A DNA stretch of 64,000 nucleotides from Escherichia phage vB_EcoM_ESCO8: sequence record OM386653.1; one strand, 5' to 3'. Both the position numbers and the translations under genes were made by a program. Shown one piece after another: positions 20,820 to 40,347 of the stretch (its first letter is position 1; every line of letters begins with the position of its first letter). The notes beneath the pieces are model-generated. The model was given only the letters and a program-made list of their open reading frames with translations, was not told the origin of the DNA and made no database searches.

Positions 20820-21335
20820 ATGTTTTTTGATGCTCAATCTCCACTTGTTGACTCTGTAAGCAGAGCGGTAATATATCCAGACTTTGATGAAAGAGAAATA
20901 TGGCTTAAGGAACACCACTATGATCCAGAAAATGTCAACTGGTGCAATCTGGATGTTGGTAAGTATCCGCGAGATAAGGGCATCTTGAAATATTATGCTT
21001 GCTATACGGTGGATAACATCTATGAATACTACGTGTTTCGTAGTTTGATTATCCATCTAAATAAATTGGGTGCTCTAACAGGGGATTCTCAATTTACTCT
21101 AGGCCACTATAAACCATTTAAGAAAGGTGGAGAGCACTTTCCAAGCAATTGGATTATACAAACATTAAAAGATAATTCTCGTGCTAGTGATGTTATCCCA
21201 GACAAAAAAGAAAAGTGGACATGGCATGAGCAAATGGAGTATATTATACAACATATGCCACAACGTGTATTGTATGAGGAAAAGTTGGTCAACCGTTGTG
21301 CCGAGTTAATACAGATTGTTAAAGGGTTTTACTAG
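20820..21335 (+). CDS. hypothetical protein
   Basis: ORF track 171 aa. Confidence 0.55.
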   Translation: MFFDAQSPLVDSVSRAVIYPDFDEREIWLKEHHYDPENVNWCNLDVGKYPRDKGILKYYACYTVDNIYEYYVFRSLIIHLNKLGALTGDSQFTLGHYKPFKKGGEHFPSNWIIQTLKDNSRASDVIPDKKEKWTWHEQMEYIIQHMPQRVLYEEKLVNRCAELIQIVKGFY

Positions 21336-21343
21336 GGGGAAAT

Positions 21344-21820
21344 ATGTCTAAACGTTTTGGTCGTAATCAAAAAAGAAAGTTAAGTGCTCAACTAGCAACT
21401 TTGCAAAAAGAGGTTAACACTTTACAAAAAAGTGTTTGTGAACTTAAGGAACAAAACCAACTTGAAAAAGAGTGTATCCAGCTTACACAGGAAGTTATTG
21501 GTGAGTATTTTCCTTCACTAGTTCCTAAGAAGGTGGCTCTTAGGGAAAATCTACCTTTTACTTTATCCTTAATGCAAGCAAATGATAGATTCCAAACTGA
21601 AACTGATGATTTGATGTTTGCAATGCATCAATTACATGGTTTAGAATATACAGCACAAGTGGATAAACTTCGTAACATGTTATATGTGCGGGTAGAAACA
21701 CCTAAAGGTGAGACAGTAGCTTTTAATTATAATTTCCAACAGCTACCTGATCATATTATTGAACAAATTTTAAAACGAGATTTTGTTCCTATGCTTGTTA
21801 AACAAATTAAGAGAGGTTGA
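21344..21820 (+). CDS. hypothetical protein (coiled-coil N-terminus)
   Basis: ORF track 158 aa. Confidence 0.55.
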   Translation: MSKRFGRNQKRKLSAQLATLQKEVNTLQKSVCELKEQNQLEKECIQLTQEVIGEYFPSLVPKKVALRENLPFTLSLMQANDRFQTETDDLMFAMHQLHGLEYTAQVDKLRNMLYVRVETPKGETVAFNYNFQQLPDHIIEQILKRDFVPMLVKQIKRG

Positions 21821-21821
21821 A

Positions 21822-23558
21822 ATGGCTAAGAAAGAGTTGAGCTTCACTCCAACAGAAGAGCAAACAGCTATTAAGGAGGCTTTTCCAGACCATCGCTTTT
21901 TAACTATCCAAGCTAAATCTGGATCAGGCAAAACGTCAACACTTTATTTGCTGGCTAACAGTACAGAAGATCGCATTCTTTACTTAGCTTTCAATAAAAG
22001 CATGGCAGAAGAAGCACGACGTAAGATGCCACTAAATGTAGAATGCCGTACATTGCATTCTATTTGCTATCAATTCCTGGATCATCGTTTACGTGCAAAA
22101 CTGTCACGACCAGAAGGACAGTATGTTAACGTTGCAGGTACAGGTAGCGAGATAGCAAAGAAATTTAAGATTAATAATCTTATTGATAAACGAGGGAAAA
22201 CACTTTTAACTCGTGCTATGATCGGTTTAATGATCAAGCAAACCGTAGGTAAGTTTGAATTTTCGGATGATCCTTTTATCAGCCGTAAACATTTTCCTAG
22301 TGTACATCTTGCAGATATTAAAAGAAAAGGTATTAACGAACACAAACTAATTACAGAAGTAGTTAAGTATGCAAAACAACTGTGGCGAGAGCGCATCGAT
22401 CCTAACACAGATACTTTGATGACGCATGACACCTATGTAAAATTGTTTGAATTGTCTGGTGCTGATCTTGGTTATGATATTATTTTTGGTGATGAATTCC
22501 AGGATGTTAACCCTGCATTCTTGTCTATTCTGCGAAATGCTAAATCTGCAAAACAAGTAGTAGTGGTGGGTGACGAATATCAGAGCATCTACCAGTTCCG
22601 TGGAAGCCAAAATATGATGAAGGAAACCTCTACATATGGGGCAGAGCTTCCATTAACTGCTTGCTTCCGTTTTGGCCCCAAAGTGGCAAACATTGCCAAT
22701 ATGATTTTAAGCGATAAAGAACCTTTGCGTCATCCTTTGGTTGGTAAAGGCTTTGATACTGTAGTAGGTAGCTACAAATCAGATGTTGTAGACTATACAA
22801 AACCTTACACTATCATCTTTCGCAAGAATTTAACCTTGCTTATGGAGGCAATGGATCGTATTGCAGATGGGGAAGAAATTATTATTAACGTAGATACCAG
22901 AGATTTTATCTCTATGGTAGATAGTGTTAATGCTCTTCGGAGAGGAGATATTGAGAAAGTAAAACATGAAACTGTATTACCTTACGCAGACTGGAATGAA
23001 TTTGTTGAGTGTGCAGAGGCTGATCCAGATGCTAAACGCTTGTTAAACATCGTAGTTTCTGGTAAGGCGAACACTATAGCACATACACTTAGAACGCATA
23101 GAAATTCTCCTACAGCAAAAGTCACACTGACTACAGCACACAAGTCTAAAGGTTTGGAGTGGGATCAGGTTATTGTTGCTAATGATTTTCCTTCCAACTA
23201 TGATAAAAAGACTGGTGAATGGATAGGACTGGAAGAGGCAGAGCGAAACCTACTGTATGTAGCGCATACCCGTTGTGTTAAATGCTTACAATGGAACACA
23301 ACCGTACAGGAGATTATAGATATCAACCGTGTTGCAACAGAGAAAGTACCAACAAGCACCACTTTACCGATCAATGGTATTAAACTTGGTGTATTTGGCG
23401 CTGGCACATCTCGAAAAGCTGTAGAAAAATTTGTTGCAGATTCTTTTGATGGTAACTATAATCATGCACAAGCATATGAGAGTTGGTTAGAGGAAGGTGA
23501 AGGTGATTTTTTAGGTGAAATAAATCTTTTACCAGATATAAATAAACTGGTAAACTAA
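21822..23558 (+). CDS. SF1 (UvrD/Dda-like) DNA helicase
   Basis: Walker A AKSGSGKTS, motif II GDEFQDVN, later SF1-like motifs; start at ATG after GAGAGG RBS. Confidence 0.7.
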   Translation: MAKKELSFTPTEEQTAIKEAFPDHRFLTIQAKSGSGKTSTLYLLANSTEDRILYLAFNKSMAEEARRKMPLNVECRTLHSICYQFLDHRLRAKLSRPEGQYVNVAGTGSEIAKKFKINNLIDKRGKTLLTRAMIGLMIKQTVGKFEFSDDPFISRKHFPSVHLADIKRKGINEHKLITEVVKYAKQLWRERIDPNTDTLMTHDTYVKLFELSGADLGYDIIFGDEFQDVNPAFLSILRNAKSAKQVVVVGDEYQSIYQFRGSQNMMKETSTYGAELPLTACFRFGPKVANIANMILSDKEPLRHPLVGKGFDTVVGSYKSDVVDYTKPYTIIFRKNLTLLMEAMDRIADGEEIIINVDTRDFISMVDSVNALRRGDIEKVKHETVLPYADWNEFVECAEADPDAKRLLNIVVSGKANTIAHTLRTHRNSPTAKVTLTTAHKSKGLEWDQVIVANDFPSNYDKKTGEWIGLEEAERNLLYVAHTRCVKCLQWNTTVQEIIDINRVATEKVPTSTTLPINGIKLGVFGAGTSRKAVEKFVADSFDGNYNHAQAYESWLEEGEGDFLGEINLLPDINKLVN

Positions 23559-23568
23559 GGGGGTTAAA

Positions 23569-23820
23569 GTGGCAGGGTATCATTTGAAGGAGATTAGCAA
23601 AGAGGAATATGGTTCTATTGCTAAAATTCAAGAAGAGCTTTATGAACTTCAGGATGCTATTGATCAAGATTGCAAGCTGATGCAACTTATTGAGTTATCA
23701 GATATTGTAGGCGCTGTTGAAGGTGTTCTTGAACAGCATTTTCCTGATATGACGCTTCAAGATTTGATCACTATGTCGAACATTACTAAACGTGCATTCC
23801 GCAATGGAGGTCGCTCATGA
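23569..23820 (+). CDS. MazG-like nucleotide pyrophosphohydrolase domain protein (tentative)
   Basis: 83 aa, GTG start; IQEELYELQDAI ... ELSDIVGAV resembles the EExxE/D helix pair of small MazG proteins. Confidence 0.4.
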   Translation: MAGYHLKEISKEEYGSIAKIQEELYELQDAIDQDCKLMQLIELSDIVGAVEGVLEQHFPDMTLQDLITMSNITKRAFRNGGRS

Positions 23821-24389
23821 ATGTTGAAGTAATAGCCCAAGCTATTGATTACTATGGTCGGTTTGCACAAATGTTGGAAGTTCCATATCTCGTGGATGCT
23901 GATATACTGGTGTACACACTACCAGAAAATAAAGAGGATCGCCCATTAGGGCATCCTAACGGTAAATACTATGTAGCCAGTGCAGAACAATCTTTCCTGC
24001 AAATGGAGAAGGATGGTTTTGAATTTGCAGCAGGTAATCCTTATATGGCACTAACACCATGTTACCGTACAGAAGAAAATTTAGATGATACTCATTTCAA
24101 TATTTTCTTGAAATTGGAGTTGATTGAGTTCTATCCTGATGCTACAATTGAAGAGTATGCTAACTCTATGCGCTGTTTCTTCTCTACTTACTATGGAGTT
24201 AAAACATATTTAGTACCCACTAATATTGGGGTTGACGTAGAGGATGAATATGGTTTAGAATTAGGTTCATTCGGTATGAGGGAGTCTCCAAAAGGTCATC
24301 CTTATATCTATGCAACAGGTATTGCGGAGCCTAGGGCTTCACTGGCAATAAACCGTGTTGTAAATAAGATTCAAAGCATTAGCAAATAA
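23817..24389 (+). CDS. hypothetical protein
   Basis: ORF track 190 aa; weak class II aaRS-like motif (TPCYRTEE) not considered sufficient. Confidence 0.5.
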   Translation: MNVEVIAQAIDYYGRFAQMLEVPYLVDADILVYTLPENKEDRPLGHPNGKYYVASAEQSFLQMEKDGFEFAAGNPYMALTPCYRTEENLDDTHFNIFLKLELIEFYPDATIEEYANSMRCFFSTYYGVKTYLVPTNIGVDVEDEYGLELGSFGMRESPKGHPYIYATGIAEPRASLAINRVVNKIQSISK

Positions 24390-24401
24390 GAGGAGAATAG
24401 A

Positions 24402-24836
24402 ATGTCTATTGTGACACAAATGAAAGCAGATCGTATCTTAGCACGTACAACCGATAAGGGTGCTTTTGCTTTGTTAACTAATATTATTGGTGAGTTTGAC
24501 CTTGCTCGTACTCAAAAGGCAAATCTAAATAAATCAGAAGACGATATTATGATTAACATTGTTAAGATTGGTATTGCACACGCTAAAGAGGAGCTAGACT
24601 CACTTAAGAAAGTTAATGCTTCCCTTAGCAAATGTGAGCGAGCTATGCGTGATATCACCACTCTGGAAAAATATTTACCAGAAATGCTATCTGAAGATGA
24701 CCTTCGAGCGATTGCTGAAGAATTTGCCTTGACAGGCAAGAAAATGCCAGATATGATGAAACACCTTAAAGCAGAGTATCCGAATCAATATGATGGAAAA
24801 CTTGCTTCTACCATTGCAAAAGAAATTTTAAACTAA
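24402..24836 (+). CDS. hypothetical protein
   Basis: ORF track 144 aa. Confidence 0.5.
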   Translation: MSIVTQMKADRILARTTDKGAFALLTNIIGEFDLARTQKANLNKSEDDIMINIVKIGIAHAKEELDSLKKVNASLSKCERAMRDITTLEKYLPEMLSEDDLRAIAEEFALTGKKMPDMMKHLKAEYPNQYDGKLASTIAKEILN

Positions 24837-27693: not shown

Positions 27694-28160
27694 ATTACGC
27701 CGGATATGAACCTGTTGACATGCTCAACGGTGATGGTGTAAGATGCTCTTTGTGGGTGAGCGGTTGTAGCCACGGTTGCCGTGGCTGCTTTAACCAGAAA
27801 GCCTGGTCGTATAACTACGGACAAGAGTTCACTACTGAAACATTAGATCTTATCTTGAAAGATTTATCTCGACCTTTCATTAAAGGATTAACAGTTTTAG
27901 GTGGTGAACCTCTTGACAAAGAGAACATTGACACTGTAGAGTATGTTCTTGAGAAGGTAAGAGATTGTTTTGGAAACAAAAAAGATATTGTCTTATATAC
28001 AGGATATCTTTTTGAAGAAATTCCAGAGAAAATTAAAAAACTGGTTGACATAGTAATAGATGGTAAGTATGATATGACTCAACCAACAACGAAACGTTAT
28101 AGAGGTTCAGATAATCAACGAATGTGGGTTAAGAAAGACAACATTTGGGAATCTGACTAA
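27690..28160 (+). CDS. nrdG: Anaerobic RNR activating protein (radical SAM)
   Basis: TTG start; N-terminus MNYAGYEPVDMLNGDGVRCSLWVSGCSHGCRGCFN closely parallels E. coli NrdG N-terminus as recalled. Confidence 0.85.
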   Translation: MNYAGYEPVDMLNGDGVRCSLWVSGCSHGCRGCFNQKAWSYNYGQEFTTETLDLILKDLSRPFIKGLTVLGGEPLDKENIDTVEYVLEKVRDCFGNKKDIVLYTGYLFEEIPEKIKKLVDIVIDGKYDMTQPTTKRYRGSDNQRMWVKKDNIWESD

Positions 28161-28180
28161 ATTAAATAGAGGAGAAAACT

Positions 28181-29341
28181 ATGTTTACAGTATTCGGCAA
28201 TCAAATCTTCCTGCGTCAGAAGTCTGGTACAGATATTGAAGAAATTCCAGCAGGAACTTTTGGTGTAGGTGTTACTCAAAGTGGCGAGTTCTTCCTGTAT
28301 CCTAAAAACGATATGGAAGTCCCTTCAGTAACATACGGTGATACTGATGATAAATCAGAACGTATTATCAAGACGTTCCTTAGCCGCAAAGGTAAAAACA
28401 CAGGTGTTCTCCTTGAGGGTACGAAGGGTAGCGGTAAAACTTTGCAAGCTAAAATGCTGTCTTCTGCTCTTCGTGAAATGGGTATTCCTACTATTTCTAT
28501 CGGTAGTGCTTTTAATGGTGAAGGCTTTATCAATTTTATGTCTAAAATCACACAACCTGTGATGATTATGATCGATGAATTTGATAAACTGTATGCTGAA
28601 AAAGATGCACAGGATGGTTTGCTTACCCTGCTGGATGGTGTTGGTGGCTATGACAAGCTGTTTGTATTGACTAAAAATGATGGTTATGTATCAGAATTTT
28701 TGCGTAATCGCCCTAGCCGTATTTTCTACAGCTTTAACTATAAGAAACTACCTAAAGCTACTATGGATGATTATCTGGCTAAAAATCTGGAGAACAAAGC
28801 CTTTTTACCAGATTTTGAAACGCTTTATAATCTGTCCGTGGACTTGAACTTTGATATTGTTCAGTCATTAGTAGAAGAACTTAACCGTTACCCTAATGAC
28901 AAATTCTCTGATGCACTTGCATTAATGGGTATCAGTATTACTGAACACCGCTATGCTGCAAAAGAAGTTAAACTTCTGAAAGTTAACGGTGTAGATCGTA
29001 CAGGAGATGTTTCGGCAGATACCGATATTGACGGTATGACAGCACAGGGTTTGTTTAGCGGTAATCGTTATGTTGTAGCTGTAGACCATAAGCTAGGAGA
29101 AGAGCATCTTCCTGAAATGGAAGGAGTCGTTACCGTAGAAGATAAAGACGAAGAAGGTGACTACTACTGGGGTGTAGACCGTATCTTGCTGACGTATGAT
29201 GAAAAACACATCCGTACAATGGGCGGTGACGGTTATCACTTTATGTTCACCGATGATAAAGGTAACAACATTGAAGTTGTTATTAAAAACAAAGAACGTA
29301 AAAACTACACAGAGTATGTGTTTGGTGGTCGTTCTTACTAA
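28181..29341 (+). CDS. AAA-type ATPase (paralog B)
   Basis: 386 aa; GTKGSGKT, IMIDEFDK, RPSRIFYSFNY; N-terminal ~250 aa similar to 12488..13615. Confidence 0.7.
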   Translation: MFTVFGNQIFLRQKSGTDIEEIPAGTFGVGVTQSGEFFLYPKNDMEVPSVTYGDTDDKSERIIKTFLSRKGKNTGVLLEGTKGSGKTLQAKMLSSALREMGIPTISIGSAFNGEGFINFMSKITQPVMIMIDEFDKLYAEKDAQDGLLTLLDGVGGYDKLFVLTKNDGYVSEFLRNRPSRIFYSFNYKKLPKATMDDYLAKNLENKAFLPDFETLYNLSVDLNFDIVQSLVEELNRYPNDKFSDALALMGISITEHRYAAKEVKLLKVNGVDRTGDVSADTDIDGMTAQGLFSGNRYVVAVDHKLGEEHLPEMEGVVTVEDKDEEGDYYWGVDRILLTYDEKHIRTMGGDGYHFMFTDDKGNNIEVVIKNKERKNYTEYVFGGRSY

Positions 29342-29348
29342 GTGATAA

Positions 29349-29375
29349 AAGGAGGCGAAAGCCTCCTTTATTTGT
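29349..29375 (+). terminator. Rho-independent terminator
   Basis: AAGGAGGC-gaaa-GCCTCCTT followed by TATTTG. Confidence 0.6.
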
Positions 29376-29387
29376 ATGGAGGGTATT

Positions 29388-29579
29388 ATGGATCATTATT
29401 TTGTTTTTAAAGATAAAGTTGATACCGCAGGTGGTCACGTTGCTAAAAATGATCGTGACATTAAAGAAGTATTAGGAGATCTGATTAACATTTTAGAACA
29501 AAAAGAGTTGCTTTTAGATAAGGATATTGCTAGACTTCTTGGTGTGGGGATAAGTGACATACAAAGATTACCATTCTAA
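29388..29579 (+). CDS. hypothetical protein
   Basis: GGAGGG RBS then ATG; 63 aa. Confidence 0.4.
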   Translation: MDHYFVFKDKVDTAGGHVAKNDRDIKEVLGDLINILEQKELLLDKDIARLLGVGISDIQRLPF

Positions 29580-29590
29580 AGGGGAAGAAA

Positions 29591-29746
29591 ATGCTTACAG
29601 ATGATGAATATAAAGCTATCCAAGAAAAACTAACGGAACTTGAAATTCTTGCTGTCAATATTAAAGATCAATCACATGCTGGAAAGTTACTACATCAAGA
29701 GATCAATAAAATTAAGCAGATGATATTCTTTTGGACGGAGGATTAA
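29591..29746 (+). CDS. hypothetical small protein (51 aa)
   Basis: Manually read ORF MLTDDEYKAIQEKLTELEILAVNIKDQSHAGKLL...; RBS AAAGGGGAAG. Confidence 0.35.
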   Translation: MLTDDEYKAIQEKLTELEILAVNIKDQSHAGKLLHQEINKIKQMIFFWTED

Positions 29747-29748
29747 AA

Positions 29749-30405
29749 ATGACTGTTAAGCATATTTCTTTTGATGTATGGAATACTCTTATTACTGCTA
29801 ATCCTTTGTATGCAGAAGAACGCAACAAGGTTATTGCCGAGTATGCCTCTTGTTCTGAGGTAGAAGCAGCTACCGTATATAAAGAGGTAAAAACTCTCCT
29901 GGATTTAAAAGCAGAAAAAGGCATTTGTGGAACATCTAGAAATGCTTGGGAAACACTTTCTGCTCGTTTGAACATTGATCTTGATAAAGTAGATGGGTTA
30001 AAAAGAGACTGTTTAGCAATGTTTATAAAACATCCTCCAACATTAAACCCTGAACTTTGCAAGAAGTTGGAAGAGCTAAGTTCAACCTATTCTTTGAGTA
30101 TTAAAAGCAATACTAATTTTGTACCTGGTAGTTTTTTAGCTGTATATTCTGGCTTGACAAAATTACCATTCGACTTTATGCATTTTTCTGACGAGTTTTG
30201 CTTGTGTAAACCAGATCCTAGGTTTTTTAAACTCTCTTTTGATGAAATGGTAACGTTTGATCTCGCACCAGAGGAGATCTTACACGTTGGAGATAGTTTG
30301 ATCTATGATGGAAAAGCTGTTGACATAGGGATGAAGTTCTGTCATATTATTAATCCAGAAGACTTGTTGGCTAAACTTAAAAAAGAGGAACTTATTAATG
30401 CGTAA
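29749..30405 (+). CDS. HAD-superfamily hydrolase (phosphatase-like)
   Basis: Motif I FDVWNTL near N-terminus, motif IV VGDSLIYDGK near C-terminus; 8-nt overlap with next gene. Confidence 0.55.
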   Translation: MTVKHISFDVWNTLITANPLYAEERNKVIAEYASCSEVEAATVYKEVKTLLDLKAEKGICGTSRNAWETLSARLNIDLDKVDGLKRDCLAMFIKHPPTLNPELCKKLEELSSTYSLSIKSNTNFVPGSFLAVYSGLTKLPFDFMHFSDEFCLCKPDPRFFKLSFDEMVTFDLAPEEILHVGDSLIYDGKAVDIGMKFCHIINPEDLLAKLKKEELINA

Positions 30406-31255
30406 TCAAATTCAACATTTTGCTAATACTTTTACTAACCTGAAGGAAGCAAAATTTAACATTGCAGATTATTCCAAGCTAAAGTTTGGTAGTAACCAGG
30501 CAGCAAAAAGAATGGGGCGCATTCTGGCTGAAAGTTTCTTTTCCAAGTATGAAGAACGACTGGTAAATGAAAGTTTTGTTGTTATTCCATCTCCATATAA
30601 CTATGTGAAAAATGCAGCTACAGTGTTATCTGAACATTTTGTAGATCACCTCAACTACCTAATCTCTATCAAAGGAGGTAAAGCAGTGGAGTGGGATATC
30701 GTTCATCGTAAAGTGAGCTATATCAATGATTATGGATTTCTTAGCAAAGAAGATCGTAAGGCTTTGATCGATGGTGACACTTTCTCTATCAATCGTGATT
30801 TCTGGGGTAATAAAACTCTGATTTTCATTGATGATGTTAATATTACAGGAACGCACGAAGAAAAACTTATTGAAATTTTAGACAAAGAAGGTGTTGAAAA
30901 CGATACGTTTTTCCTGTACTTTGCAAAGTATGAAGGTACAGAAGCCAATACCGAAGCTGCACTTAACTTCAACTATATCAATAACCTGGCAGCTTTTATT
31001 AAAATGATTAAACAAGAAACTGATGCTAAATGTTTGGTTCGTCCTATTAAGTATCTAATGAGTCAAAGCGAAGTTGATTTTAAAATTGCACTTTCACAGC
31101 TTCCTTTGTATTATGTAGAACAACTGTTCTTTGGTTGCCTTGCAGAAGGCTACAATAACATTGAAAAATATAAAGAGAACTTTGATTTCCTACGTCAATT
31201 TTTTGAAAGCAACATTATCAACAAATCTAATGTTAAAGGGGATTATTATGTCTAA
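30398..31255 (+). CDS. Phosphoribosyltransferase-like protein (divergent type I PRTase)
   Basis: 285 aa; LIFIDDVNITGTHEE resembles PRPP-binding loop of type I PRTases; translationally coupled to HAD and macro genes. Confidence 0.45.
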   Translation: MRNQIQHFANTFTNLKEAKFNIADYSKLKFGSNQAAKRMGRILAESFFSKYEERLVNESFVVIPSPYNYVKNAATVLSEHFVDHLNYLISIKGGKAVEWDIVHRKVSYINDYGFLSKEDRKALIDGDTFSINRDFWGNKTLIFIDDVNITGTHEEKLIEILDKEGVENDTFFLYFAKYEGTEANTEAALNFNYINNLAAFIKMIKQETDAKCLVRPIKYLMSQSEVDFKIALSQLPLYYVEQLFFGCLAEGYNNIEKYKENFDFLRQFFESNIINKSNVKGDYYV

Positions 31256-31964
31256 TAAAGTAATGACTTTCGGAGATCCTATCACCAATATTACAGAAAA
31301 AGATTTTGGGCGTGTAGCAACAGATAAAGATGGTGTCTTAAGAATTCGTGTACAAGGTATTACAGCACAGGATGAATATGCTGTGTATGTTTCAGGTCTT
31401 AACTATATTGATGATCGCATTACACAAAACTTTGCACTGATCGGTGGTGTAGAGAAAATGTATTGGGAAGATGAAATTGTAACAAGTTATCCGGCAGGTA
31501 TCATTGAGGTATACGGTGATCTTTTAGCAGCAGCCGAGAGAGGCGATATAGACGCTATAGCACACTGCTGTAACTGTTTTTGCACTATGGGTAGTGGTAT
31601 TGCACCAAAAATTAAAAGCAAGTGGCCTGGTGCGTTTAAAGCAGATTGTGCCACTAAACATGGTGATTATAAAAAATTAGGTACGTTTACCAAATATATA
31701 GAAAACAATTTGACAATTTATAATTTATATGGACAATATGGTTATAGTCGTCGTGAGGAAGGTAAGCGTGACCTGAATTATGAAGCTATCTACAATGCGT
31801 TAGATAGTATGGGAGACGATGTTGTATCTTCAGGCGGTAAAATTGTAGGTTTACCAATGCTTGGTTGTGGTTTGGCTGGAGGTTCTTGGAGTATTGTAAA
31901 ACTTATGATCGAAGAAACTCTAGTAAACAAAGGTTTAAATGTAATTGTTTACAAACTGAAATAA
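31248..31964 (+). CDS. Macro-domain protein with unknown N-terminal domain
   Basis: ATG preceded by AAAGGGG; C-terminal half has macro-like IDAIAHCCNCFCTMGSGIA and LPMLGCGLAGGS motifs; ORF-track start 31131 rejected. Confidence 0.55.
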   Translation: MSNKVMTFGDPITNITEKDFGRVATDKDGVLRIRVQGITAQDEYAVYVSGLNYIDDRITQNFALIGGVEKMYWEDEIVTSYPAGIIEVYGDLLAAAERGDIDAIAHCCNCFCTMGSGIAPKIKSKWPGAFKADCATKHGDYKKLGTFTKYIENNLTIYNLYGQYGYSRREEGKRDLNYEAIYNALDSMGDDVVSSGGKIVGLPMLGCGLAGGSWSIVKLMIEETLVNKGLNVIVYKLK

Positions 31965-31973
31965 GGAGAAAGT

Positions 31974-32180
31974 ATGGCAGGTGTTTTAGCAGTATTAGGT
32001 TGTTTTATTGTTGTGTTTTTGATTGTGTTAATCCCTAGTTGGCTACTGCTTTTAGCATACAACTATATGATTGACATTATCGGCTTAGACTGGCATCATG
32101 TTCCTGTAACGTTTTGGAGTGTAGTCTGTGTGACGTTCATTCTTGCGGTACTTCGTGGTATCTTTCAATCTAACAAATAA
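31974..32180 (+). CDS. hypothetical small membrane protein
   Basis: ORF track 68 aa; two TM helices. Confidence 0.45.
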   Translation: MAGVLAVLGCFIVVFLIVLIPSWLLLLAYNYMIDIIGLDWHHVPVTFWSVVCVTFILAVLRGIFQSNK

Positions 32181-32194
32181 GAGAGGATTTTTAT

Positions 32195-32443
32195 ATGCGT
32201 AAAGTAAATGTTGAAGTGCTTGAAAAATTTAGAAACACTCGTGATTGTACTATCGGCAAGGTTTACGAGGCTATTCTCCTTGAAGATGGAGATCAAGTTC
32301 CTGCCCCGTATCACGCCTTTAATGGTCAAATCAGCAAAGTGGAAGGTGGTCTTGCTATTTGCTTTATTGATGACGTAGGTGATGCTGTAGCTTTCCCTGT
32401 CATTAACAAAGAAGATAAACTTAAAATTACAGAACTGAACTAG
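32195..32443 (+). CDS. hypothetical protein
   Basis: ORF track 82 aa. Confidence 0.5.
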   Translation: MRKVNVEVLEKFRNTRDCTIGKVYEAILLEDGDQVPAPYHAFNGQISKVEGGLAICFIDDVGDAVAFPVINKEDKLKITELN

Positions 32444-32471
32444 TTGACTTTCTTTAAAAACAGTTTATAGT
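32444..32471 (+). promoter_or_regulatory. sigma70-like promoter with leader hairpin ahead of TerC gene
   Basis: TTGACT-16nt-TATAGT followed by CATAGAG and hairpin GCGGAGGA-ttgt-CCTCCGC (32484-32502), same architecture as early-array promoters. Confidence 0.5.
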
Positions 32472-32520
32472 ATAAGACATAGAGCGGAGGATTGTCCTCC
32501 GCATTAAAGAGGAGAAAAGA

Positions 32521-33498
32521 ATGCAACTGGGTTTCCCAATTATTGATGTGGTTGTTTTAGTGGGTATTTTAGTCTTGTCGATTTGTATTGACTTCTTTGG
32601 ACACAGAGAAAACAAAGAAATTTCATTTAAATCTGCAATTGGCTGGTCAATTTTCTGGATTGGGGTATCATTAGCCTACTATGGTTTTGTATACTTCCAA
32701 CACGGTGCTGATTTTGCGAGCTTGTTCTTGAGTGGGTATGTGTTGGAGAAATCTCTTTCTGTAGATAACTTAGTAGTATTTGTAGCAGTATTCGCAAGTT
32801 TTGGTATTAAAAGCACACACTTGCAGCACAAGATTCTACTTTGGGGTATTGCAGGTGCGATTGTCTTCCGAGGTGTGTTTGTAGCAGTAGGTACTTACTT
32901 GTTGAGTTTGGGCTGGTATGTTAATATCTTCTTCGGTGCTGTCATCCTTTTCTGTGCGGCTAAAATGGTATTCGCTGGAGATAATGATGCAGAAGTTGAT
33001 TACTCTAAACACTGGGCTACTCGCATTGTTCGTAAGCTGTTCCCTGTATCTGATCAGATGGATGGTGAGAAGTTCTTCACAATCAAAAATGGTGTTCGTG
33101 TAGCAACTCCGGCTCTGGTTTGTGTGTTTGTAATGGAAATGGTTGACGTAATCTTTGCAGTAGACTCTGTTCCAGCAGTAATTGCAGTGACACAAGAACC
33201 TCTGCTGGTGTTCTCTTCGATGCTCTGTGCAATCTTAGGTTTACGTGCTCTGTTCTTTGTTCTTAGTGTTGCACTGAAGTATTTGGTTCATCTGGAGAAA
33301 GCAGTTATCGTAGTCCTGGTGTTTGTGGGTGTAAAACTGATGTATCACCCGTTTGCAGAAACTCTGCACGCAAAAGTGAGTTTCCTGCCAGCACACATTG
33401 ACCCGACGATCAGTATGTATATTGTGTTAGGTACTCTTGGGCTGGGTGTTCTTGCAAGTTTAATCTTCCCTGAAAAAGAAGACCAGGCTGTTGCTTAA
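32521..33498 (+). CDS. TerC-family integral membrane protein
   Basis: 325 aa, multi-TM; conserved EKSLSVDNLVVF and DVIFAVDSVPAV motifs. Confidence 0.75.
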   Translation: MQLGFPIIDVVVLVGILVLSICIDFFGHRENKEISFKSAIGWSIFWIGVSLAYYGFVYFQHGADFASLFLSGYVLEKSLSVDNLVVFVAVFASFGIKSTHLQHKILLWGIAGAIVFRGVFVAVGTYLLSLGWYVNIFFGAVILFCAAKMVFAGDNDAEVDYSKHWATRIVRKLFPVSDQMDGEKFFTIKNGVRVATPALVCVFVMEMVDVIFAVDSVPAVIAVTQEPLLVFSSMLCAILGLRALFFVLSVALKYLVHLEKAVIVVLVFVGVKLMYHPFAETLHAKVSFLPAHIDPTISMYIVLGTLGLGVLASLIFPEKEDQAVA

Positions 33499-33504
33499 TT
33501 CATT

Positions 33505-33528
33505 AAGCCCCTTCGGGGGCTTTATTGA
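33505..33528 (+). terminator. Rho-independent terminator
   Basis: AAGCCCC-ttcg-GGGGCTT followed by TATTGA. Confidence 0.55.
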
Positions 33529-33537
33529 GGTGATCTG

Positions 33538-33744
33538 ATGGTGGTTTTACGTGTTCTTTGGATTCTGTTTGAAAATATTTGTTTTGCTCTAGGTTTGTTT
33601 TGTTTGATTTTTATCTTGACAACATATATTGATAACCATACAATTACTATCAACAGGAACGGAGAACAGATGTATTGTTTCTCTAGGGATTTTAAAAATT
33701 GTGTTGAGATTTTAAATGAGAGGGTTACAAATGAAAAACATTAA
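33538..33744 (+). CDS. hypothetical small membrane protein
   Basis: ORF track 68 aa. Confidence 0.35.
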   Translation: MVVLRVLWILFENICFALGLFCLIFILTTYIDNHTITINRNGEQMYCFSRDFKNCVEILNERVTNEKH

Positions 33745-34321
33745 ATCTTTTATTGTTGCAGTTGTTTTAGGTAGTGCATTGCTGGTAGGTTGTGATGATT
33801 CTGAAAATGTACAAAATCAACGTTACCAACAAACACCAAATCAGATGGTAGATGAACAATATGTAAATCAGCCTGCACCTCAAGTTGTTCAAGCAGCACC
33901 TGCACAACCTTCAACAGTTGTTGTGCAAGGAGGCGGCAGTGGTTCTTCTGGCGTAGGTGAGTTTGCTACAGGTATGCTTCTTGGTCATATGTTGAGTGGT
34001 AATAGTGGCGGTGGTGGTTATAGAGATGGCGGTAGCAATACAACAATTATCAATAACAACGCTGCTCCTACAACTAATAGTAAAGCATATACAACACAAA
34101 AGCATAGGTTTTATGATAAACAAGGGAATACATATACAACCACTAAACAAAACACAATTAAGCAGCAAAGTGTACAAACGTATTCACGCCCATCAACAAC
34201 AAAAGTGAATAGTGATTACTCTGCTCGTAAGTCTTACTCAAGTCCTATTAGCTCTTATAGTAAGTCTTCGAAAAGTTATTCTTCGTCGAAACGTAGTTTT
34301 AGTAGCTCACGTCGTCGTTAA
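33731..34321 (+). CDS. Putative lipoprotein with Ser/Tyr-rich low-complexity tail
   Basis: Start MKNIKSFIVAVVLGSALLVGC (lipobox LVGC) after GAGAGGG RBS; G-rich and S/Y/K-rich C-terminus. Confidence 0.5.
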   Translation: MKNIKSFIVAVVLGSALLVGCDDSENVQNQRYQQTPNQMVDEQYVNQPAPQVVQAAPAQPSTVVVQGGGSGSSGVGEFATGMLLGHMLSGNSGGGGYRDGGSNTTIINNNAAPTTNSKAYTTQKHRFYDKQGNTYTTTKQNTIKQQSVQTYSRPSTTKVNSDYSARKSYSSPISSYSKSSKSYSSSKRSFSSSRRR

Positions 34322-35276: not shown

Positions 35277-36380
35277 ATGTCCAGTCCTTTTATCAGTGCC
35301 GTAAAAAGCAAACCGTCTGAAATGAGTGTATTCACGGCAACAACAGAAAAAAGTAAGTCTTTGTTTGCTCCAACTGCTATGGATGCAAGTCCTGTATATG
35401 CCCCTGCTGTTGCACGACCTGTACAAATGCTGCCTCCAATGTCTCGTGAAGAGATTGAACAGGTTGGTGCTGATGCAGGACTTACTCTTCGTAACCTTAA
35501 TGCTGAAGTGCTTAAACACCAGCGTTCATCTCAGGGAGATGAAATGAGTGAACGTTTAACTGCGCTTATTAAGCAAGCAAAGCAACTTGATCCTAACTCT
35601 ATTAAACAATCTAAAGGTTTAGGTAAACTAGTTAAGAAAGTTTTAGGTATGAAAGAAGATTTGTTTGGAGAATTTGACACCATCAATAACCGTATTGAAG
35701 GTTTGGTAAAGACACTCCAAACAGACTTGAAAAAAGAAGAAGATTCTTTACGATATCTGCAACGTTTAGAAGAGGCTATTGCAAAATATGCCCTTAGTTT
35801 AAACAGGGATATAGAGCTTCTAACAGCTACTTATGAAAAAGAAGAAATTCGCCTTAATACACTGCCTGAAAATGAGGTAGAAGAGCGTCAACGTACTCGT
35901 GATACTATGGATCTGCTTGAAATTCGTATTGCAGACCTGAAAGCCTTACGCTTACTATGTGTTCAGATGGGGCCACGTGTACAAAGTATGCAGAAAGTAT
36001 CTGCAAGTTTGATGCGATCAGCCCGTAATATTGTGAATAATGTTATCCCTGCTTACTCTGCAAACTTTTCTATGCATATTGAAAGTCTACGCCAGAAGAA
36101 AGCAGCCGATACACAGAACAATGTACTAAATGAATTTAATGCTGCTATTGCAATGGGTAGTGATTTGGCTGCACAAAACCAAATTGAAGCTACACAACTT
36201 GCTAATCGTCAAGTATTGGATATTGAAACATTACGTCGTGATCAAGAAAACTTGGTTAAAATGTTGGAAGAAACTAACCGAATCAACACTGAAGCCCGTG
36301 CTGCTCGTATTGATTACATTCAAGAAGTGCAATCTCTTGAAGATGGTATGATTCAAACTGTTAAACGTGGTCTACTTTAA
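35277..36380 (+). CDS. TelA-like (toxic anion resistance family) protein, tentative
   Basis: 367 aa, predominantly coiled-coil, size and context (between TerC and TerD/vWA) fit TelA/KlaA family; not confirmed by motif. Confidence 0.4.
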   Translation: MSSPFISAVKSKPSEMSVFTATTEKSKSLFAPTAMDASPVYAPAVARPVQMLPPMSREEIEQVGADAGLTLRNLNAEVLKHQRSSQGDEMSERLTALIKQAKQLDPNSIKQSKGLGKLVKKVLGMKEDLFGEFDTINNRIEGLVKTLQTDLKKEEDSLRYLQRLEEAIAKYALSLNRDIELLTATYEKEEIRLNTLPENEVEERQRTRDTMDLLEIRIADLKALRLLCVQMGPRVQSMQKVSASLMRSARNIVNNVIPAYSANFSMHIESLRQKKAADTQNNVLNEFNAAIAMGSDLAAQNQIEATQLANRQVLDIETLRRDQENLVKMLEETNRINTEARAARIDYIQEVQSLEDGMIQTVKRGLL

Positions 36381-37626: not shown

Positions 37627-38421
37627 ATGTCCAATAAAATCAGTCTTAAAAAACGTCAAGAAACTCTTACCGTATCTCTGCGTAAGAAAAAGATTAACGA
37701 TGTTGTTCTTCGTGTCGGTAGCGCCTTAGATATTTCGGGTAGTATGTGTGAGCTGTATCGTGATGGCACTGTTAGTGATTTTGTAGGTAAGCTACTGCCG
37801 TTTGGTATGAAGTTTGATGATAATGCACAGATTGACATGTGGGCTTTCAATAGTTCTTCTTTTGAACTGCCTCCTGCAACGGCTGATGTATATGATGATT
37901 ATGTCGGCTCTTGTATGTCTAATGTTTGCATCAATGGTGGTACAGCTTATGCTCCAGTAATGCAAGAGATCTATGATACATACTTCGGTAGTGTACCTAT
38001 GAAAAATATTACACGCGAAGTCGTTGAGTATGAAGAAGTTCCGGCTAAGGGTTTCCTTGCTAAACTAACTGGTAAAAAAGAACGTGTAGAAGTTACACGT
38101 ACTGTTGTAGAACAGGTTGTAGATACTGATGCACAAGTTGATCGTACTCCTGCAATGATTTTCTTCCAAACTGACGGGGAGAACATGGATACTTCAGCAG
38201 TACGTAGTTTGCTGAACAAACACCGCAACACTCCTGTTTACTGGTTTATGGTTGGTGTAGGTAATGCAAACTTTAAATTCCTGAAAGACTTGGCAAAAGA
38301 ATACGATAACGTTGATTTTATCGGTATTGCAGATTTGTCCTTGTCTGACGAAGAACTTTACGATAAACTGCTATCCGAAGAGTTTGGCGAGTGGGTTAAA
38401 AAATTTGGAGCAAAAGCGTAA
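37627..38421 (+). CDS. von Willebrand factor A (vWA) domain protein (TerY-like)
   Basis: 264 aa; MIDAS motif LDISGSM near N-terminus, later FFQTDGEN; adjacent to TerD. Confidence 0.6.
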   Translation: MSNKISLKKRQETLTVSLRKKKINDVVLRVGSALDISGSMCELYRDGTVSDFVGKLLPFGMKFDDNAQIDMWAFNSSSFELPPATADVYDDYVGSCMSNVCINGGTAYAPVMQEIYDTYFGSVPMKNITREVVEYEEVPAKGFLAKLTGKKERVEVTRTVVEQVVDTDAQVDRTPAMIFFQTDGENMDTSAVRSLLNKHRNTPVYWFMVGVGNANFKFLKDLAKEYDNVDFIGIADLSLSDEELYDKLLSEEFGEWVKKFGAKA

Positions 38422-38493: not shown

Positions 38494-39090
38494 ATGACTC
38501 AGAAAATTTCCCTGAAAAAAGGTTCTAGCGAAAAAGTTTCTCTGAAAAAGATTGCACCAGCACTGAAACGCATTCGTCTGGAATTCTCTTGGAAATCTAA
38601 CGAAAAACTGGATCTGGATGTTAGTGCTCTGATTTGCCGACACAATGCATCTGGTCTGCCGGAACTGTTGTCTCCTCGCCACCTGGTATGCTACGCACAG
38701 AAATTTGATCCTGAACGTTCTACTTTTGCAGGTGAAGATGTTCGTGACGGTGTAGGACAAATGGAGCAGATTGATGTTACACTGGATAATATCTCTGCTG
38801 AAGCACAGGAAATTGCATTCGTAATCACTATTGATGACGAAACGGGTAAGAAACGCCTTGGTCACGCTACCGAAGGTTTCCTTAAAATCTTCGATGATGA
38901 ACGTAACGTTGAACTGCTGGATTTTGACTTCTTGGCTCCAGAACTTGCAGGTAATACCATTTGCCACGTTGCCTCCCTGGTGCGGGAAGATAGCGAATGG
39001 AAACTGAAAGCATATGGTGTAGGTAAAGCTGGACTTGACATTTATGATGTAGTTAAAGCGTTTGGCGCTGGCGACGATTGGTTCGAGTAA
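38494..39090 (+). CDS. TerD-family protein
   Basis: 198 aa; ISLKKGSSEKVSLKK, DLDVSAL, ITIDD, EWKLKAYGVG pattern matches TerD/TerE/TerZ family as recalled. Confidence 0.75.
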   Translation: MTQKISLKKGSSEKVSLKKIAPALKRIRLEFSWKSNEKLDLDVSALICRHNASGLPELLSPRHLVCYAQKFDPERSTFAGEDVRDGVGQMEQIDVTLDNISAEAQEIAFVITIDDETGKKRLGHATEGFLKIFDDERNVELLDFDFLAPELAGNTICHVASLVREDSEWKLKAYGVGKAGLDIYDVVKAFGAGDDWFE

Positions 39091-39837: not shown

Positions 39838-40347
39838 TTGTCAATAAAAACCTTTGTCGCAATTGCGTTACTATCCTTAACTGCTTTTACATTTACACCT
39901 GTTGTGGCGCAAGCCGAAGCTGCAAACGTAAAAACTGCTAAAGTAGTTCACAAGTGTACAAAGCGTGATAGTAAAGAAAATCTATTAGCTTGTGCAATCT
40001 ATGCAGAAAGTCGTAATCAAGGAAAGCGAGGTATGTCTGCTGTTGGTAATGTAGTATTGAATAGGGCTAGAGATTCATATTTCCCTGATACTATAAAAGA
40101 AGTTTTGTTTCAAAAAGGACAATTCTCTTACACAAAGACATTCAACGTTATGGAACGTGATAAGTGGAAGGAAGCTAAGACTATAGCAGAACGTCTACGT
40201 TATCTCGATACGCATTTTCCAGAATTACGAATTGCATTAGATATTACAAAAGGAGCATTATACTTTAAAAAATCTACAATAAGAGCACACTGGGAAAAAG
40301 ATATGGTTCTAGTGTACCGCTACAAAGAACATCAATTCTATCGCTAA
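39838..40347 (+). CDS. Cell-wall hydrolase (SleB/Hydrolase_2-like) with signal peptide
   Basis: TTG start after AGGAGG RBS; signal peptide ending AQA; LACAIYAESRNQG...GNVVLNRAR motif. Confidence 0.55.
   Translation: MSIKTFVAIALLSLTAFTFTPVVAQAEAANVKTAKVVHKCTKRDSKENLLACAIYAESRNQGKRGMSAVGNVVLNRARDSYFPDTIKEVLFQKGQFSYTKTFNVMERDKWKEAKTIAERLRYLDTHFPELRIALDITKGALYFKKSTIRAHWEKDMVLVYRYKEHQFYR

What the first reader, a model, noticed from the sequence alone, without database searches (positions are those of the whole stretch)
29749..31964. Translationally coupled HAD hydrolase - PRTase-like - macro-domain triad upstream of the Ter module
Three genes overlap by 8 nt each (ATG..TAA overlaps at 30398-30405 and 31248-31255), which implies co-translation and a shared pathway. 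PRTase plus HAD phosphatase is the enzymatic core that Ter-associated operons are proposed to use to make a nucleoside-like metabolite, and here a macro domain is fused into the same unit. The triad could synthesise or degrade a ribosylated nucleotide signal, and interference with ADP-ribose-derived immune signalling is one possibility. The PRTase motif is divergent (GTHEE instead of TTGGT), suggesting an unusual substrate.
Basis: partly seen in the sequence, partly recalled or inferred. Interest (0 to 1): 0.8.

Follow-up and report, generated by a model that had tools for sequence, protein, structure and literature searches.

The report
Ter-linked HAD–PRTase pair plus anti-DarT-like macrodomain
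Three tightly packed genes in a known E. coli phage are correctly identified, but they are most likely two separate things: a widespread two-gene enzyme cassette of unknown chemistry, and beside it a DNA ADP-ribose eraser of a kind recently shown to protect phages from the bacterial DarTG2 defence.

Summary
The genes at 29749-30405, 30398-31255 and 31248-31964 overlap by 8 nt each. They encode a HAD-fold hydrolase, a PF15610 (PRTase_3) type I phosphoribosyltransferase, and a macrodomain protein. The window is Escherichia phage outra (Justusliebigvirus), and some public records already give these three labels.

The "triad = one pathway" reading is not supported.
- Across 47 PRTase_3 loci, a HAD gene lies directly upstream in 45.
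- A macro gene follows within 1 kb in only 9, all from this one phage subfamily, and in 0 of the other 38.
- The sister subfamily Vequintavirinae keeps the macro gene in the same slot without HAD, PRTase or Ter genes.
- Overlaps are routine here: 18 of 52 adjacent gene pairs overlap.

The macrodomain belongs to the TARG1/DarG/SCO6735 class and has the SCO6735/T4 Tk.4-type active site (Gln163). Stand-alone phage macrodomains of this class (AdfM) were recently shown to neutralise DarTG2.

The "divergent" GTHEE motif is the invariant signature of the whole PRTase_3 family.

Residual novelties:
- The HAD has Trp where phosphatases have the Asp+2 catalytic acid, family-wide.
- The macro protein's N-terminal module is fused to a possibly MazG-like domain in a sister clade.

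The chemistry of the HAD-PRTase pair remains unknown.

The parts
29348..29369 (+). Terminator-like hairpin (AAAGGAGGC-GAAA-GCCTCCTTT followed by ATTTGT) after the AAA-ATPase gene. It is a possible upstream boundary of the block that contains the triad.
   Evidence: pattern match only
29749..30405 (+). HAD-fold hydrolase, 218 aa. The nucleophile Asp9, Ser120/Asn121, Lys154 and Asp182/Asp187 are conserved, but motif I is SFDxWxT, with Trp11 at the Asp+2 position.
   Evidence: PF00702 E 6.5e-6; phrog_14393 E 2.5e-119; motif analysis over 38 distinct homologues; nearest PDB entry 2OM6 has the same FDVWNTL motif
30398..31255 (+). PRTase_3 (PF15610) type I phosphoribosyltransferase, 285 aa. The PRTase core spans roughly aa 1-180, with the PRPP loop IDDVNITGTHEE (aa 144-155), followed by a C-terminal helical domain (~aa 185-280). 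It overlaps the HAD gene by 8 nt.
   Evidence: Pfam E 1.1e-41; AF2 model pLDDT 92.4; the Foldseek top 50 are all type I PRTases such as HGPRT, PyrR, ComF and APRT; invariant residues
31248..31511 (+). N-terminal module (aa 1-88) of the macro protein, fold unknown (low pLDDT). It is homologous to the N-terminal half of a separate 188-aa protein in the sister clade, whose C-terminal half is weakly MazG-like.
   Evidence: hhalign probability 96.9%, E 2e-10; phmmer hits; MazG PF03819 E 0.036 and 0.073, both below the Pfam cut-off; pLDDT 30-59
31512..31964 (+). Macrodomain (aa ~89-238) of the TARG1/DarG/SCO6735 (ALC1-like) class. His106, Asn109, Gln163 (equivalent to SCO6735 Gln85) and the GCGLAGG loop are conserved. 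It is a probable AdfM-type DNA ADP-ribosyl glycohydrolase.
   Evidence: PMC9411070 for the roles of these residues
31974..32180 (+). 68-aa hydrophobic (by-eye transmembrane) protein, conserved immediately downstream of the macro gene in all three clades of the subfamily.
   Evidence: 60% identity to phAPEC8, 43% to L014
32444..32502 (+). Promoter-like TTGACT-16-TATAGT (32444-32471) followed by the hairpin GCGGAGGA-TTG-TCCTCCGC (32484-32502) with no T-run. This is a likely separate promoter and 5'-UTR structure for terC.
   Evidence: the phAPEC8 record annotates a promoter at the equivalent position
32521..33498 (+). TerC-family membrane protein
   Evidence: PF03741 E 1.2e-38
35277..36380 (+). 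TelA-family protein
   Evidence: PF05816 E 5.7e-34
37627..38421 (+). vWA domain of the TerF-C-terminal type
   Evidence: PF10138 E 7.2e-39
38494..39090 (+). TerD-domain protein
   Evidence: PF02342 E 5.1e-28
39838..40347 (+). SleB-like cell-wall hydrolase. This is a backbone anchor gene that lies 0.5-3 kb downstream of the macro gene in Vequintavirinae.

Best explanation
The three genes are two functional units that happen to be neighbours.

Unit 1 is a two-gene cassette, HAD-fold hydrolase followed by a PRTase_3 type I phosphoribosyltransferase. It is conserved as a stop/start-overlapping pair across many unrelated phages and on rhizobial plasmids, and is often but not always next to TerC, TerD, TelA and vWA genes. 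By inference, the PRTase joins PRPP to an unidentified base-like acceptor to give a ribonucleoside 5'-phosphate derivative, and the HAD enzyme then processes that product. This matches the nucleoside-like metabolite proposed for Ter systems. The second step is uncertain because the HAD lacks the Asp+2 general acid.

Unit 2 is a stand-alone TARG1/DarG/SCO6735-class macrodomain carrying an added N-terminal module. It most likely acts as an AdfM-type orphan antitoxin: it removes ADP-ribose that host DarT2-type toxins attach to thymidine in phage ssDNA, which restores replication. It sits there because it is a backbone gene of the Stephanstirmvirinae/Vequintavirinae lineage, and the HAD-PRTase pair and the Ter genes lie on either side of it.

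Shown here: gene structure, folds, residue conservation and gene-neighbourhood statistics. Inferred: all enzymatic activities and the DarT2 target.
For: Unit 1:
- HAD lies directly upstream of PRTase_3 on the same strand in 45 of 47 sources.
- The annotated stop/start overlaps are 8 nt in phAPEC8, 1 nt in XaC1, 32 nt in RHph_Y65, 17 nt in CcrColossus and 14 nt on pRL10.
- Ter genes lie within the fetched flanks in 17 of 47 sources (examples).
- The PRTase fold and an intact acidic-pair/TG PRPP loop are present.
- Iyer et al. [quoted passage not shown]

Unit 2, independence:
- A macro gene lies within 1 kb of PRTase_3 in only 9 of 47 sources, all with a PRTase at least 65% identical to the window's, and in 0 of the other 38.
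- In L014/L015 one or two genes are inserted between PRTase and macro.
- About 2,975 phage records carry a homologous macro gene, against 156 that carry PRTase_3.
- Two Vequintavirinae genera have macro followed by the SleB hydrolase, with no HAD, PRTase or Ter gene.

Unit 2, function:
- The nearest solved relatives are SCO6735 (E 7e-16), BT1257, TARG1 (TM 0.91) and DarG. PADLOC and NCBIfam match only DarG models.
- His106, Asn109, Gln163 and the Gly-rich loop match the residues shown by mutagenesis to matter in SCO6735, which cleaves thymidine-linked ADPr-DNA (PMC9411070; alignment).
- The protein is 31% identical (E 3e-17) to a T4-type Tk.4. T4 Tk.4 is AdfM, required against DarTG2 (bioRxiv 10.1101/2025.11.20.689424). 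PhiKZ AdfM removes DarT2 marks from DNA (PMC13309987).
- Bas60-62 carry a validated anti-DarTG1 NADAR (PMC11825919). Bas62 is 99% identical to the window across the triad.
Against: - Within the subfamily the macro gene has kept its position directly after the HAD-PRTase pair in three clades. In this genus it is stop/start-overlapped with the PRTase, so co-expression is likely and a lineage-specific functional link cannot be excluded.
- In the sister clade, the gene between PRTase and macro carries the same N-terminal module fused to a possibly MazG-like nucleotide hydrolase. This hints at a local nucleotide-centred gene set.
- No activity was measured for any of the three proteins.
- The protein is only 28-31% identical to T4-type Tk.4, and SCO6735-like enzymes also de-modify proteins.
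- The synteny argument with Vequintavirinae rests on two anchor genes only.
- The product of the HAD-PRTase pair is unknown. About half of the pairs have no Ter gene nearby, so even the link to Ter is statistical.
Confidence: 0.6

Rival explanations
1. One reading: HAD, PRTase_3 and macro form one co-translated three-step pathway that makes or degrades a ribosylated nucleotide, for example a ligand for the Ter proteins.
For: - The three genes are adjacent, on the same strand and overlapped stop-to-start.
- The order HAD-PRTase-(x)-macro is kept in three clades of Stephanstirmvirinae.
- No strong terminator lies within the block.
- The neighbouring N-module/MazG-like gene in the sister clade also suggests nucleotide chemistry.
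Against: - Macro is absent from 38 of 38 HAD-PRTase_3 loci outside this subfamily.
- Macro is retained in Vequintavirinae without the pair.
- Overlaps are routine in this genome.
- The macro class is one whose characterised members act on ADP-ribosylated DNA or protein, not on PRTase products.
Confidence: 0.12
2. The macrodomain is a housekeeping-type ADP-ribose-1''-phosphate phosphatase, O-acetyl-ADP-ribose deacetylase or protein de-MARylase. It would serve RNA repair or reversal of protein ADP-ribosylation rather than acting against DarT.
For: - phrog_335 and many records annotate the homologues as 'phosphatase' or 'O-acetyl-ADP-ribose deacetylase'.
- Poa1p is a structural match (TM 0.72-0.75).
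- SCO6735 and TARG1 also act on proteins (PMC9411070).
- Iyer et al. propose roles for phage macro domains in RNA repair.
Against: - The best structural and sequence matches are TARG1, BT1257, DarG and SCO6735, well ahead of Poa1p.
- The only two phage macrodomains tested genetically or biochemically are anti-DarTG2 factors.
- The 'phosphatase' labels are inherited annotations, not tested functions.
Confidence: 0.15
3. The macrodomain destroys soluble ADP-ribose-derived immune signals (cyclic ADPR isomers, His-ADPR) from Thoeris-type systems.
For: Iyer et al. speculate that phage macro domains may degrade such signals (PMC7824862).
Against: - No macrodomain with this activity surfaced in the literature searched.
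- The known counter-measures found there are sponges and other folds.
- The active site matches DNA/protein ADPr glycohydrolases.
Confidence: 0.04
4. The HAD-PRTase_3 cassette is unrelated to Ter function. It would be a self-contained nucleotide or NAD-salvage module, or a modified-nucleotide module, that merely tends to sit in the same accessory-gene region.
For: - 30 of 47 loci have no Ter gene within 7-8 kb.
- On pRL10 and other rhizobial plasmids the pair stands alone.
- NMNAT/Nudix or Nudix genes lie nearby in RHph_Y65, L008 and XaC1.
- terC here has its own promoter-like element.
Against: - Ter genes are within a few kb of the pair in at least nine lineages outside this subfamily, including Bacteroidota MAGs.
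- By my recollection, the Pfam family was defined from Ter-linked contexts.
- The flanks fetched were short, so Ter genes elsewhere in those genomes were not excluded.
Confidence: 0.25

Closest known systems
AdfM (anti-DarT factor, macrodomain): T4 Tk.4 and PhiKZ gp104
   Same: It is a stand-alone phage macrodomain of the TARG1/DarG class that lacks the DarT-binding C-terminal domain of DarG. The NCBIfam DarG model is matched only over positions 4-147 of 338. It shares the His-x-x-Asn and Gln active-site pattern with T4-type Tk.4 and is 31% identical to it (E 3e-17).
   Different: It carries an extra ~88-aa N-terminal module that is absent from Tk.4 and from most relatives. It has Gln163 where PhiKZ AdfM and DarG have the catalytic Lys. 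Its activity against DarTG2 has not been tested.
SCO6735 (Streptomyces coelicolor) and BT1257 macrodomains
   Same: These are the best sequence matches in the PDB (E 7e-16 and 2.5e-15). They share the Gln-type active site (SCO6735 His24, Asn27, Gln85, Gly126, Gly128), and SCO6735 cleaves thymidine-linked ADPr-DNA (PMC9411070).
   Different: Those are bacterial chromosomal proteins. Identity is about 30%, and they have no N-terminal module.
Ter-associated nucleoside-like-metabolite module (Anantharaman, Iyer and Aravind 2012; phage examples in Iyer et al. 2021)
   Same: A PRTase and a HAD-fold enzyme are encoded beside TerC, TelA, vWA-TerF and TerD genes. The same arrangement in phages was described for Acinetobacter phage ME3 'and certain other related smaller tailed phages'.
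   Different: Only two enzymes are present. No ATP-grasp or other biosynthetic gene was found among the neighbours scanned. tblastn of this PRTase finds no relative on enterobacterial ter plasmids, only on rhizobial plasmids and one Hymenobacter plasmid. The HAD lacks the phosphatase Asp+2. The 2012 paper itself could not be read.
DarG antitoxin of DarTG2 toxin-antitoxin systems
   Same: The macro fold and the ADP-ribose-binding loops match.
   Different: There is no adjacent DarT, no C-terminal DarT-binding domain, and no catalytic Lys. It is not a toxin-antitoxin module.

Membership tests
Type I phosphoribosyltransferase, Pfam PF15610 (PRTase_3) | Significant match to the family profile over its full length | tested here: met
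   E 1.1e-41, 143.5 bits against a cut-off of 28.7, profile positions 14-264 of 264
Type I phosphoribosyltransferase, Pfam PF15610 (PRTase_3) | Type I PRTase alpha/beta fold | tested here: met
   AF2 model pLDDT 92.4. The Foldseek PDB top 50 are all type I PRTases at probability 0.98-1.00, with TM to target 0.34-0.53 because of the extra C-terminal helical domain.
Type I phosphoribosyltransferase, Pfam PF15610 (PRTase_3) | PRPP-binding loop: hydrophobic strand, acidic pair, then a T-G-containing phosphate loop | tested here: met
   LIFIDDVNITGTHEE. D145, D146, T150, G151, H153 and E154 are invariant in 65 homologues. The final Thr of the canonical TGxT is replaced by His throughout the family.
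Type I phosphoribosyltransferase, Pfam PF15610 (PRTase_3) | Phosphoribosyl transfer from PRPP to a defined acceptor | not testable with these tools
   No biochemical data found
HAD-superfamily phosphatase | Motif I nucleophile Asp, motif II Ser/Thr, motif III Lys, motif IV acidic residues | tested here: met
   D9, S120, K154 and D182/D187 are conserved in at least 97% of 38 distinct homologues
HAD-superfamily phosphatase | Asp at nucleophile+2 (DxDxT), the general acid/base of phosphatases and mutases | tested here: not met
   Motif I is SFDxWxT, with Trp11 in 94% of homologues. The same motif is present in PDB 2OM6. Membership of the HAD fold is therefore supported, but 'phosphatase' is not established.
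Ter-associated biosynthetic module | PRTase and HAD genes adjacent to each other | tested here: met
   45 of 47 loci
Ter-associated biosynthetic module | Genomic linkage to TerD, TerC, TelA or vWA-TerF genes | tested here: met
   All four lie within 8 kb downstream here. Overall 17 of 47 loci have Ter genes within the fetched flanks.
Ter-associated biosynthetic module | Further enzymes of the classical cluster (ATP-grasp, C-C lyase and others; this list is recalled from memory of the 2012 paper) | tested here: not met
   No such Pfam family among the 18 neighbouring proteins scanned. No tblastn relative of this PRTase on enterobacterial ter plasmids.
AdfM / orphan DarG2-like macrodomain | Macro fold of the TARG1/DarG (ALC1-like) class | tested here: met
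   TARG1 TM 0.91 with rmsd 2.1; DarG 0.79-0.81; SCO6735 0.77. Sequence hits.
AdfM / orphan DarG2-like macrodomain | Catalytic residues: Asn of the HxxN motif plus Lys (DarG/PhiKZ type) or Gln (SCO6735/Tk.4 type) | tested here: met
   N109 and Q163 are invariant, with Gln as in SCO6735 Gln85 and T4-type Tk.4. The Lys type is not present.
AdfM / orphan DarG2-like macrodomain | Stand-alone: no cognate DarT and no DarT-binding domain | tested here: met
   The DarG profiles are matched only over their macro part (4-147 of 338; 6-144 of 329). None of the 8 proteins scanned against PADLOC (the triad, four Ter proteins and the AAA ATPase) matched a DarT model.
AdfM / orphan DarG2-like macrodomain | Removes DarT2-made ADP-ribose from DNA and rescues the phage on DarTG2 hosts | not testable with these tools
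   Shown only for T4 Tk.4 and PhiKZ gp104

The most novel reading that the evidence does not exclude
In Stephanstirmvirinae the macrodomain has been recruited to the HAD-PRTase_3 cassette. The shared ~85-aa N-terminal module is fused to a MazG-like domain in one clade and to the macrodomain in this one. It could dock these nucleotide-processing enzymes onto the same complex or substrate. The three (or four) enzymes would then jointly make, edit or destroy a ribosyl-nucleotide ligand that controls the adjacent Ter membrane module. This would give the first tractable E. coli K-12 phage system (BASEL Bas60-62) for identifying the long-sought Ter 'nucleoside-like metabolite'.
Probability: 0.1. Interest if true: 0.7.

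Novelty: new member of a known kind. Interest (0 to 1): 0.3.

Why it matters
If the main reading is right, this adds a Gln-type AdfM with an N-terminal extension to the phage anti-DarTG2 repertoire. These therapeutic-candidate E. coli phages would then carry erasers for both guanine-linked ADP-ribosylation of DNA (NADAR) and thymine-linked ADP-ribosylation (macro). That is useful for predicting host range, but it is incremental.

The more open question is the chemistry of the HAD-PRTase_3 cassette, which has been unknown since 2012. This work does not solve it but sharpens it:
- The conserved unit is exactly two genes.
- The cassette also exists alone on rhizobial plasmids.
- Its HAD partner lacks the phosphatase general acid, so 'PRTase makes a nucleotide, HAD dephosphorylates it' should not be taken for granted.

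Closely related phages (BASEL Bas60-62) grow on E. coli K-12 and are publicly available, so the cassette is experimentally accessible.

Tried and rejected
- Reading the original Ter paper (PMC4104200): not held. Its claims are taken second-hand from PMC7824862 and from memory.
- Literature search for PF15610, PRTase_3 or ComF-like PRTase: the only hit was an unrelated defence-island gene table.
- PDB sequence search with the PRTase profile: only a marginal HGPRT hit (E 0.29). The fold search was needed instead.
- Structure of the macro N-terminal module: pLDDT 30-59, so no fold search was attempted on it. Pfam gives nothing for it.
- PDB profile search with the sister-clade 188-aa protein: no hits. 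The MazG assignment rests on sub-threshold Pfam matches and the EExxE/ExxD-like motif seen by eye.
- Rfam scan of 28000-34000: nothing.
- PADLOC: only the DarG match for the macro protein. The Ter proteins, HAD, PRTase and AAA ATPase match no defence model.
- Sigma-70 promoter scan: 25 sites against 16.9 +/- 4 expected. The internal sites at the gene junctions are not distinguishable from chance, so separate promoters for the three genes can be neither shown nor excluded.
- Composition profile: uniform GC of 0.34-0.43, with no sign of recent transfer.
- Rejected idea: that 'GTHEE' marks an unusual substrate specific to this phage. It is invariant across the family.
- Rejected idea: that the 8-nt overlaps are evidence of pathway coupling.
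Full report
**What is there.** The window is Escherichia phage outra (MN850645.1), a Justusliebigvirus of the subfamily Stephanstirmvirinae. The 2,216-bp interval is 100% identical to that record and 95-99.7% identical to about 66 others. Three plus-strand ORFs lie at 29749-30405, 30398-31255 and 31248-31964. Each has a Shine-Dalgarno-like sequence, and they overlap as ATGCGTAA and ATGTCTAA. Gene 3 has an in-frame alternative ATG at 31230, which some public annotations use. The start at 31248 has the better ribosome-binding site and aligns with the start of homologue P0124.

**Domain identities.**
- Gene 1 matches the HAD profile PF00702 (E 6.5e-6).
- Gene 2 matches PF15610 PRTase_3 over its full length (E 1.1e-41).
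- Gene 3 matches PF01661 Macro (aa 106-217) and, more strongly, the DarG models of NCBIfam and PADLOC (E 9.5e-13 and 4.3e-13).
- An AlphaFold model of gene 2 (pLDDT 92.4) finds only type I PRTases in the PDB, including HGPRT, PyrR, ComF and APRT (probability ~1.0). It has an additional C-terminal helical domain.
- The macro core of gene 3 (pLDDT above 90 from residue ~85) superposes on TARG1 (TM 0.91), BT1257, DarG and SCO6735.
- TerC, TelA, vWA-TerF and TerD genes follow downstream.
- Several GenBank records, for example BASEL Bas62, already label the three genes HAD-like, phosphoribosyltransferase and macrodomain.

**Are the overlaps meaningful?** Not on their own. In 30 kb of the 99%-identical Bas62 record, 18 of 52 adjacent gene pairs overlap, three of them by exactly 8 nt, and 37 of 52 are separated by 15 nt or less. 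Tight packing is the norm in this genome.

**What is conserved with what.** I collected 47 sources that encode a PRTase_3 homologue: the window, annotated phages, IMG/VR contigs, metagenome contigs and bacterial genomes. Some are duplicates of the same lineage. I scanned all ORFs with profiles for HAD, macro and the Ter proteins.
- A HAD gene lies directly upstream on the same strand in 45 of 47 sources. In the annotated records it overlaps or abuts the PRTase start by 8, 1, 32, 17 and 14 nt.
- A macro gene lies within 1 kb downstream in only 9 of 47. All nine are Stephanstirmvirinae-like, with a PRTase at least 65% identical to the window's. None of the other 38 has one, although two have a macro gene 6-7.5 kb away.
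- Ter genes lie within the fetched flanks in 17 of 47.
- On Rhizobium plasmid pRL10 and other rhizobial replicons the HAD-PRTase pair stands alone.
- Macro homologues occur in about 2,975 phage records, including T4-like, FelixO1-like and rV5-like phages. PRTase_3 occurs in 156.
- In two genera of the sister subfamily Vequintavirinae, the macro gene and a SleB-like hydrolase sit 0.5-3 kb apart in the same order as in the window, with no HAD, PRTase_3, TerC, TelA, vWA or TerD. In the window the Ter genes lie between these two anchors and the HAD-PRTase pair lies just upstream of the macro gene.
- The conserved functional unit is therefore the HAD-PRTase_3 pair. The macro gene behaves as an independent backbone gene.

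**The macrodomain.**
- By sequence its nearest solved relatives are SCO6735 (E 7e-16), BT1257, TARG1 and DarG.
- Alignment with these, with T4-type Tk.4 and with sister-clade proteins shows invariant His106, Asn109, Gln163 and the Gly-rich phosphate loop.
- In SCO6735 the equivalent His24, Asn27, Gln85 and Gly128 were shown by mutagenesis to matter, and the enzyme efficiently removes thymidine-linked ADP-ribose from DNA (PMC9411070).
- T4 Tk.4 was identified as AdfM, the factor T4 needs to grow on DarTG2 hosts (bioRxiv 10.1101/2025.11.20.689424).
- An independent study showed that PhiKZ-type AdfM removes DarT2 marks from DNA (PMC13309987).
- The window protein is 31% identical to a T4-type Tk.4 (E 3e-17) and 42% identical to the Vequintavirinae 'Tk.4' homologue.
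- Bas60-62 also encode a NADAR protein validated against DarTG1 (PMC11825919). Bas62 is 99% identical to the window across the triad.
- The most likely role of gene 3 is therefore an orphan DarG2-like antitoxin. This is inferred, not shown.

**The N-terminal extension.** Residues 1-88 are present only in this genus and one related lineage (P0124). The closest other relatives are bare ~153-aa macrodomains. In the sister clade (L014, L015), a separate 188-aa gene lies between PRTase and macro. Its N-terminal half is homologous to this extension (hhalign probability 96.9%, E 2e-10). Its C-terminal half gives sub-threshold MazG matches (E 0.036 and 0.073). The simplest history is a deletion that fused the N-module to the macrodomain. 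The module's fold and role are unknown (pLDDT 30-59).

**The PRTase motif.** 'GTHEE' is part of IDDVxITG[T/A]HE. D145, D146, T150, G151, H153 and E154 are invariant in 65 homologues down to 44% identity. It is the signature of the family and says nothing specific about this phage.

**The HAD enzyme.** The nucleophile Asp9, Ser120, Lys154 and Asp182/187 are conserved. Motif I, however, is SFDxWxT in nearly all 38 distinct homologues. The Asp+2 general acid/base of HAD phosphatases is replaced by Trp. The nearest solved structure is 2OM6, deposited only as a 'probable phosphoserine phosphatase' (E 2.8e-21); it has the same FDVWNTL motif. 'Phosphatase' is therefore an assumption.

**Transcription signals.**
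- A terminator-like hairpin follows the upstream AAA-ATPase gene (29348-29369).
- terC is preceded by a near-consensus TTGACT-16-TATAGT and a 5'-UTR hairpin (32444-32502). The phAPEC8 record annotates a promoter at the equivalent position.
- Promoter-like matches inside the triad are at chance level.
- Composition is uniform, and there is no Rfam match.

**Verdict.** The finding is real and correctly annotated, but it is largely already known. The phage HAD+PRTase Ter-type module was described in 2021. The macrodomain fits the newly defined AdfM class. Comparative genomics argues against a three-enzyme pathway. The residual points of interest are the non-canonical HAD, the N-module swap, and the availability of an E. 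coli K-12 phage model for the unsolved chemistry of the cassette.

Noticed in passing
window 29749-30405 (motif at aa 7-13): The PRTase_3-linked HAD family has SFDxWxT instead of DxDxT, with Trp at the Asp+2 catalytic position in ~94% of 38 distinct homologues. PDB 2OM6 (an uncharacterised archaeal protein) shares the motif.
   Followed up: partly
L015:4024-4590 and L014:8227-8793 versus window 31248-31511: The sister clade has a separate 188-aa gene between PRTase and macro. It combines the same N-terminal module with a weakly MazG-like C-terminal half. In this genus the module is instead fused to the macrodomain, probably through a deletion.
   Followed up: partly
window 31974-32180: A 68-aa hydrophobic (by-eye transmembrane) protein is conserved immediately after the macro gene in all three Stephanstirmvirinae clades (43-60% identity). 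It has no family match.
   Followed up: no
window 32444-32502: A near-consensus sigma-70 promoter (TTGACT-16-TATAGT) is followed by an 8-bp GC-rich hairpin in the terC 5' UTR. phAPEC8 has an annotated promoter at the same place. It could be a regulatory element for terC.
   Followed up: partly
L048 (pRL10, record 107669-109142) and L033-L044: Rhizobium, Sinorhizobium and Ensifer plasmids and chromosomes carry the HAD-PRTase_3 pair as an isolated two-gene cassette without Ter genes nearby. On pRL10 it sits next to repA.
   Followed up: partly
window 28181-29341: A 386-aa AAA-ATPase gene lies upstream of the triad. It is present in this genus and the L014/L015 clade but absent from phAPEC8. Its function is unknown.
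   Followed up: no
and one search hit lists (MG065645.1, MG065650.1): Records named 'Campylobacter phage A145' and 'Campylobacter phage B15' are 97-100% identical to these E. coli phages across the triad. The host labels look doubtful.
   Followed up: no
L032 (JAEZZU010000022.1): A contig binned as 'MAG: Proteobacteria bacterium' carries a Phapecoctavirus-like HAD-PRTase-macro block (65% identity). It is probably phage sequence binned into a bacterial MAG.
   Followed up: no
window ~20785-23559 (by offset from L001:5037-7811) and 23817-24836: The 99%-identical Bas62 record annotates an intein-containing UvrD/Rep helicase and two tRNA-synthetase or amidotransferase-like fragments just upstream of nrdD/nrdG. 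This was not checked in the window itself.
   Followed up: no
L004:5834-6406, L008:14953-15531, L003:15309-15740: NMN-adenylyltransferase/Nudix or Nudix genes lie within a few kb of the HAD-PRTase_3 pair in three unrelated phages. This could hint at NAD/ADP-ribose metabolism, or it could be coincidence.
   Followed up: no
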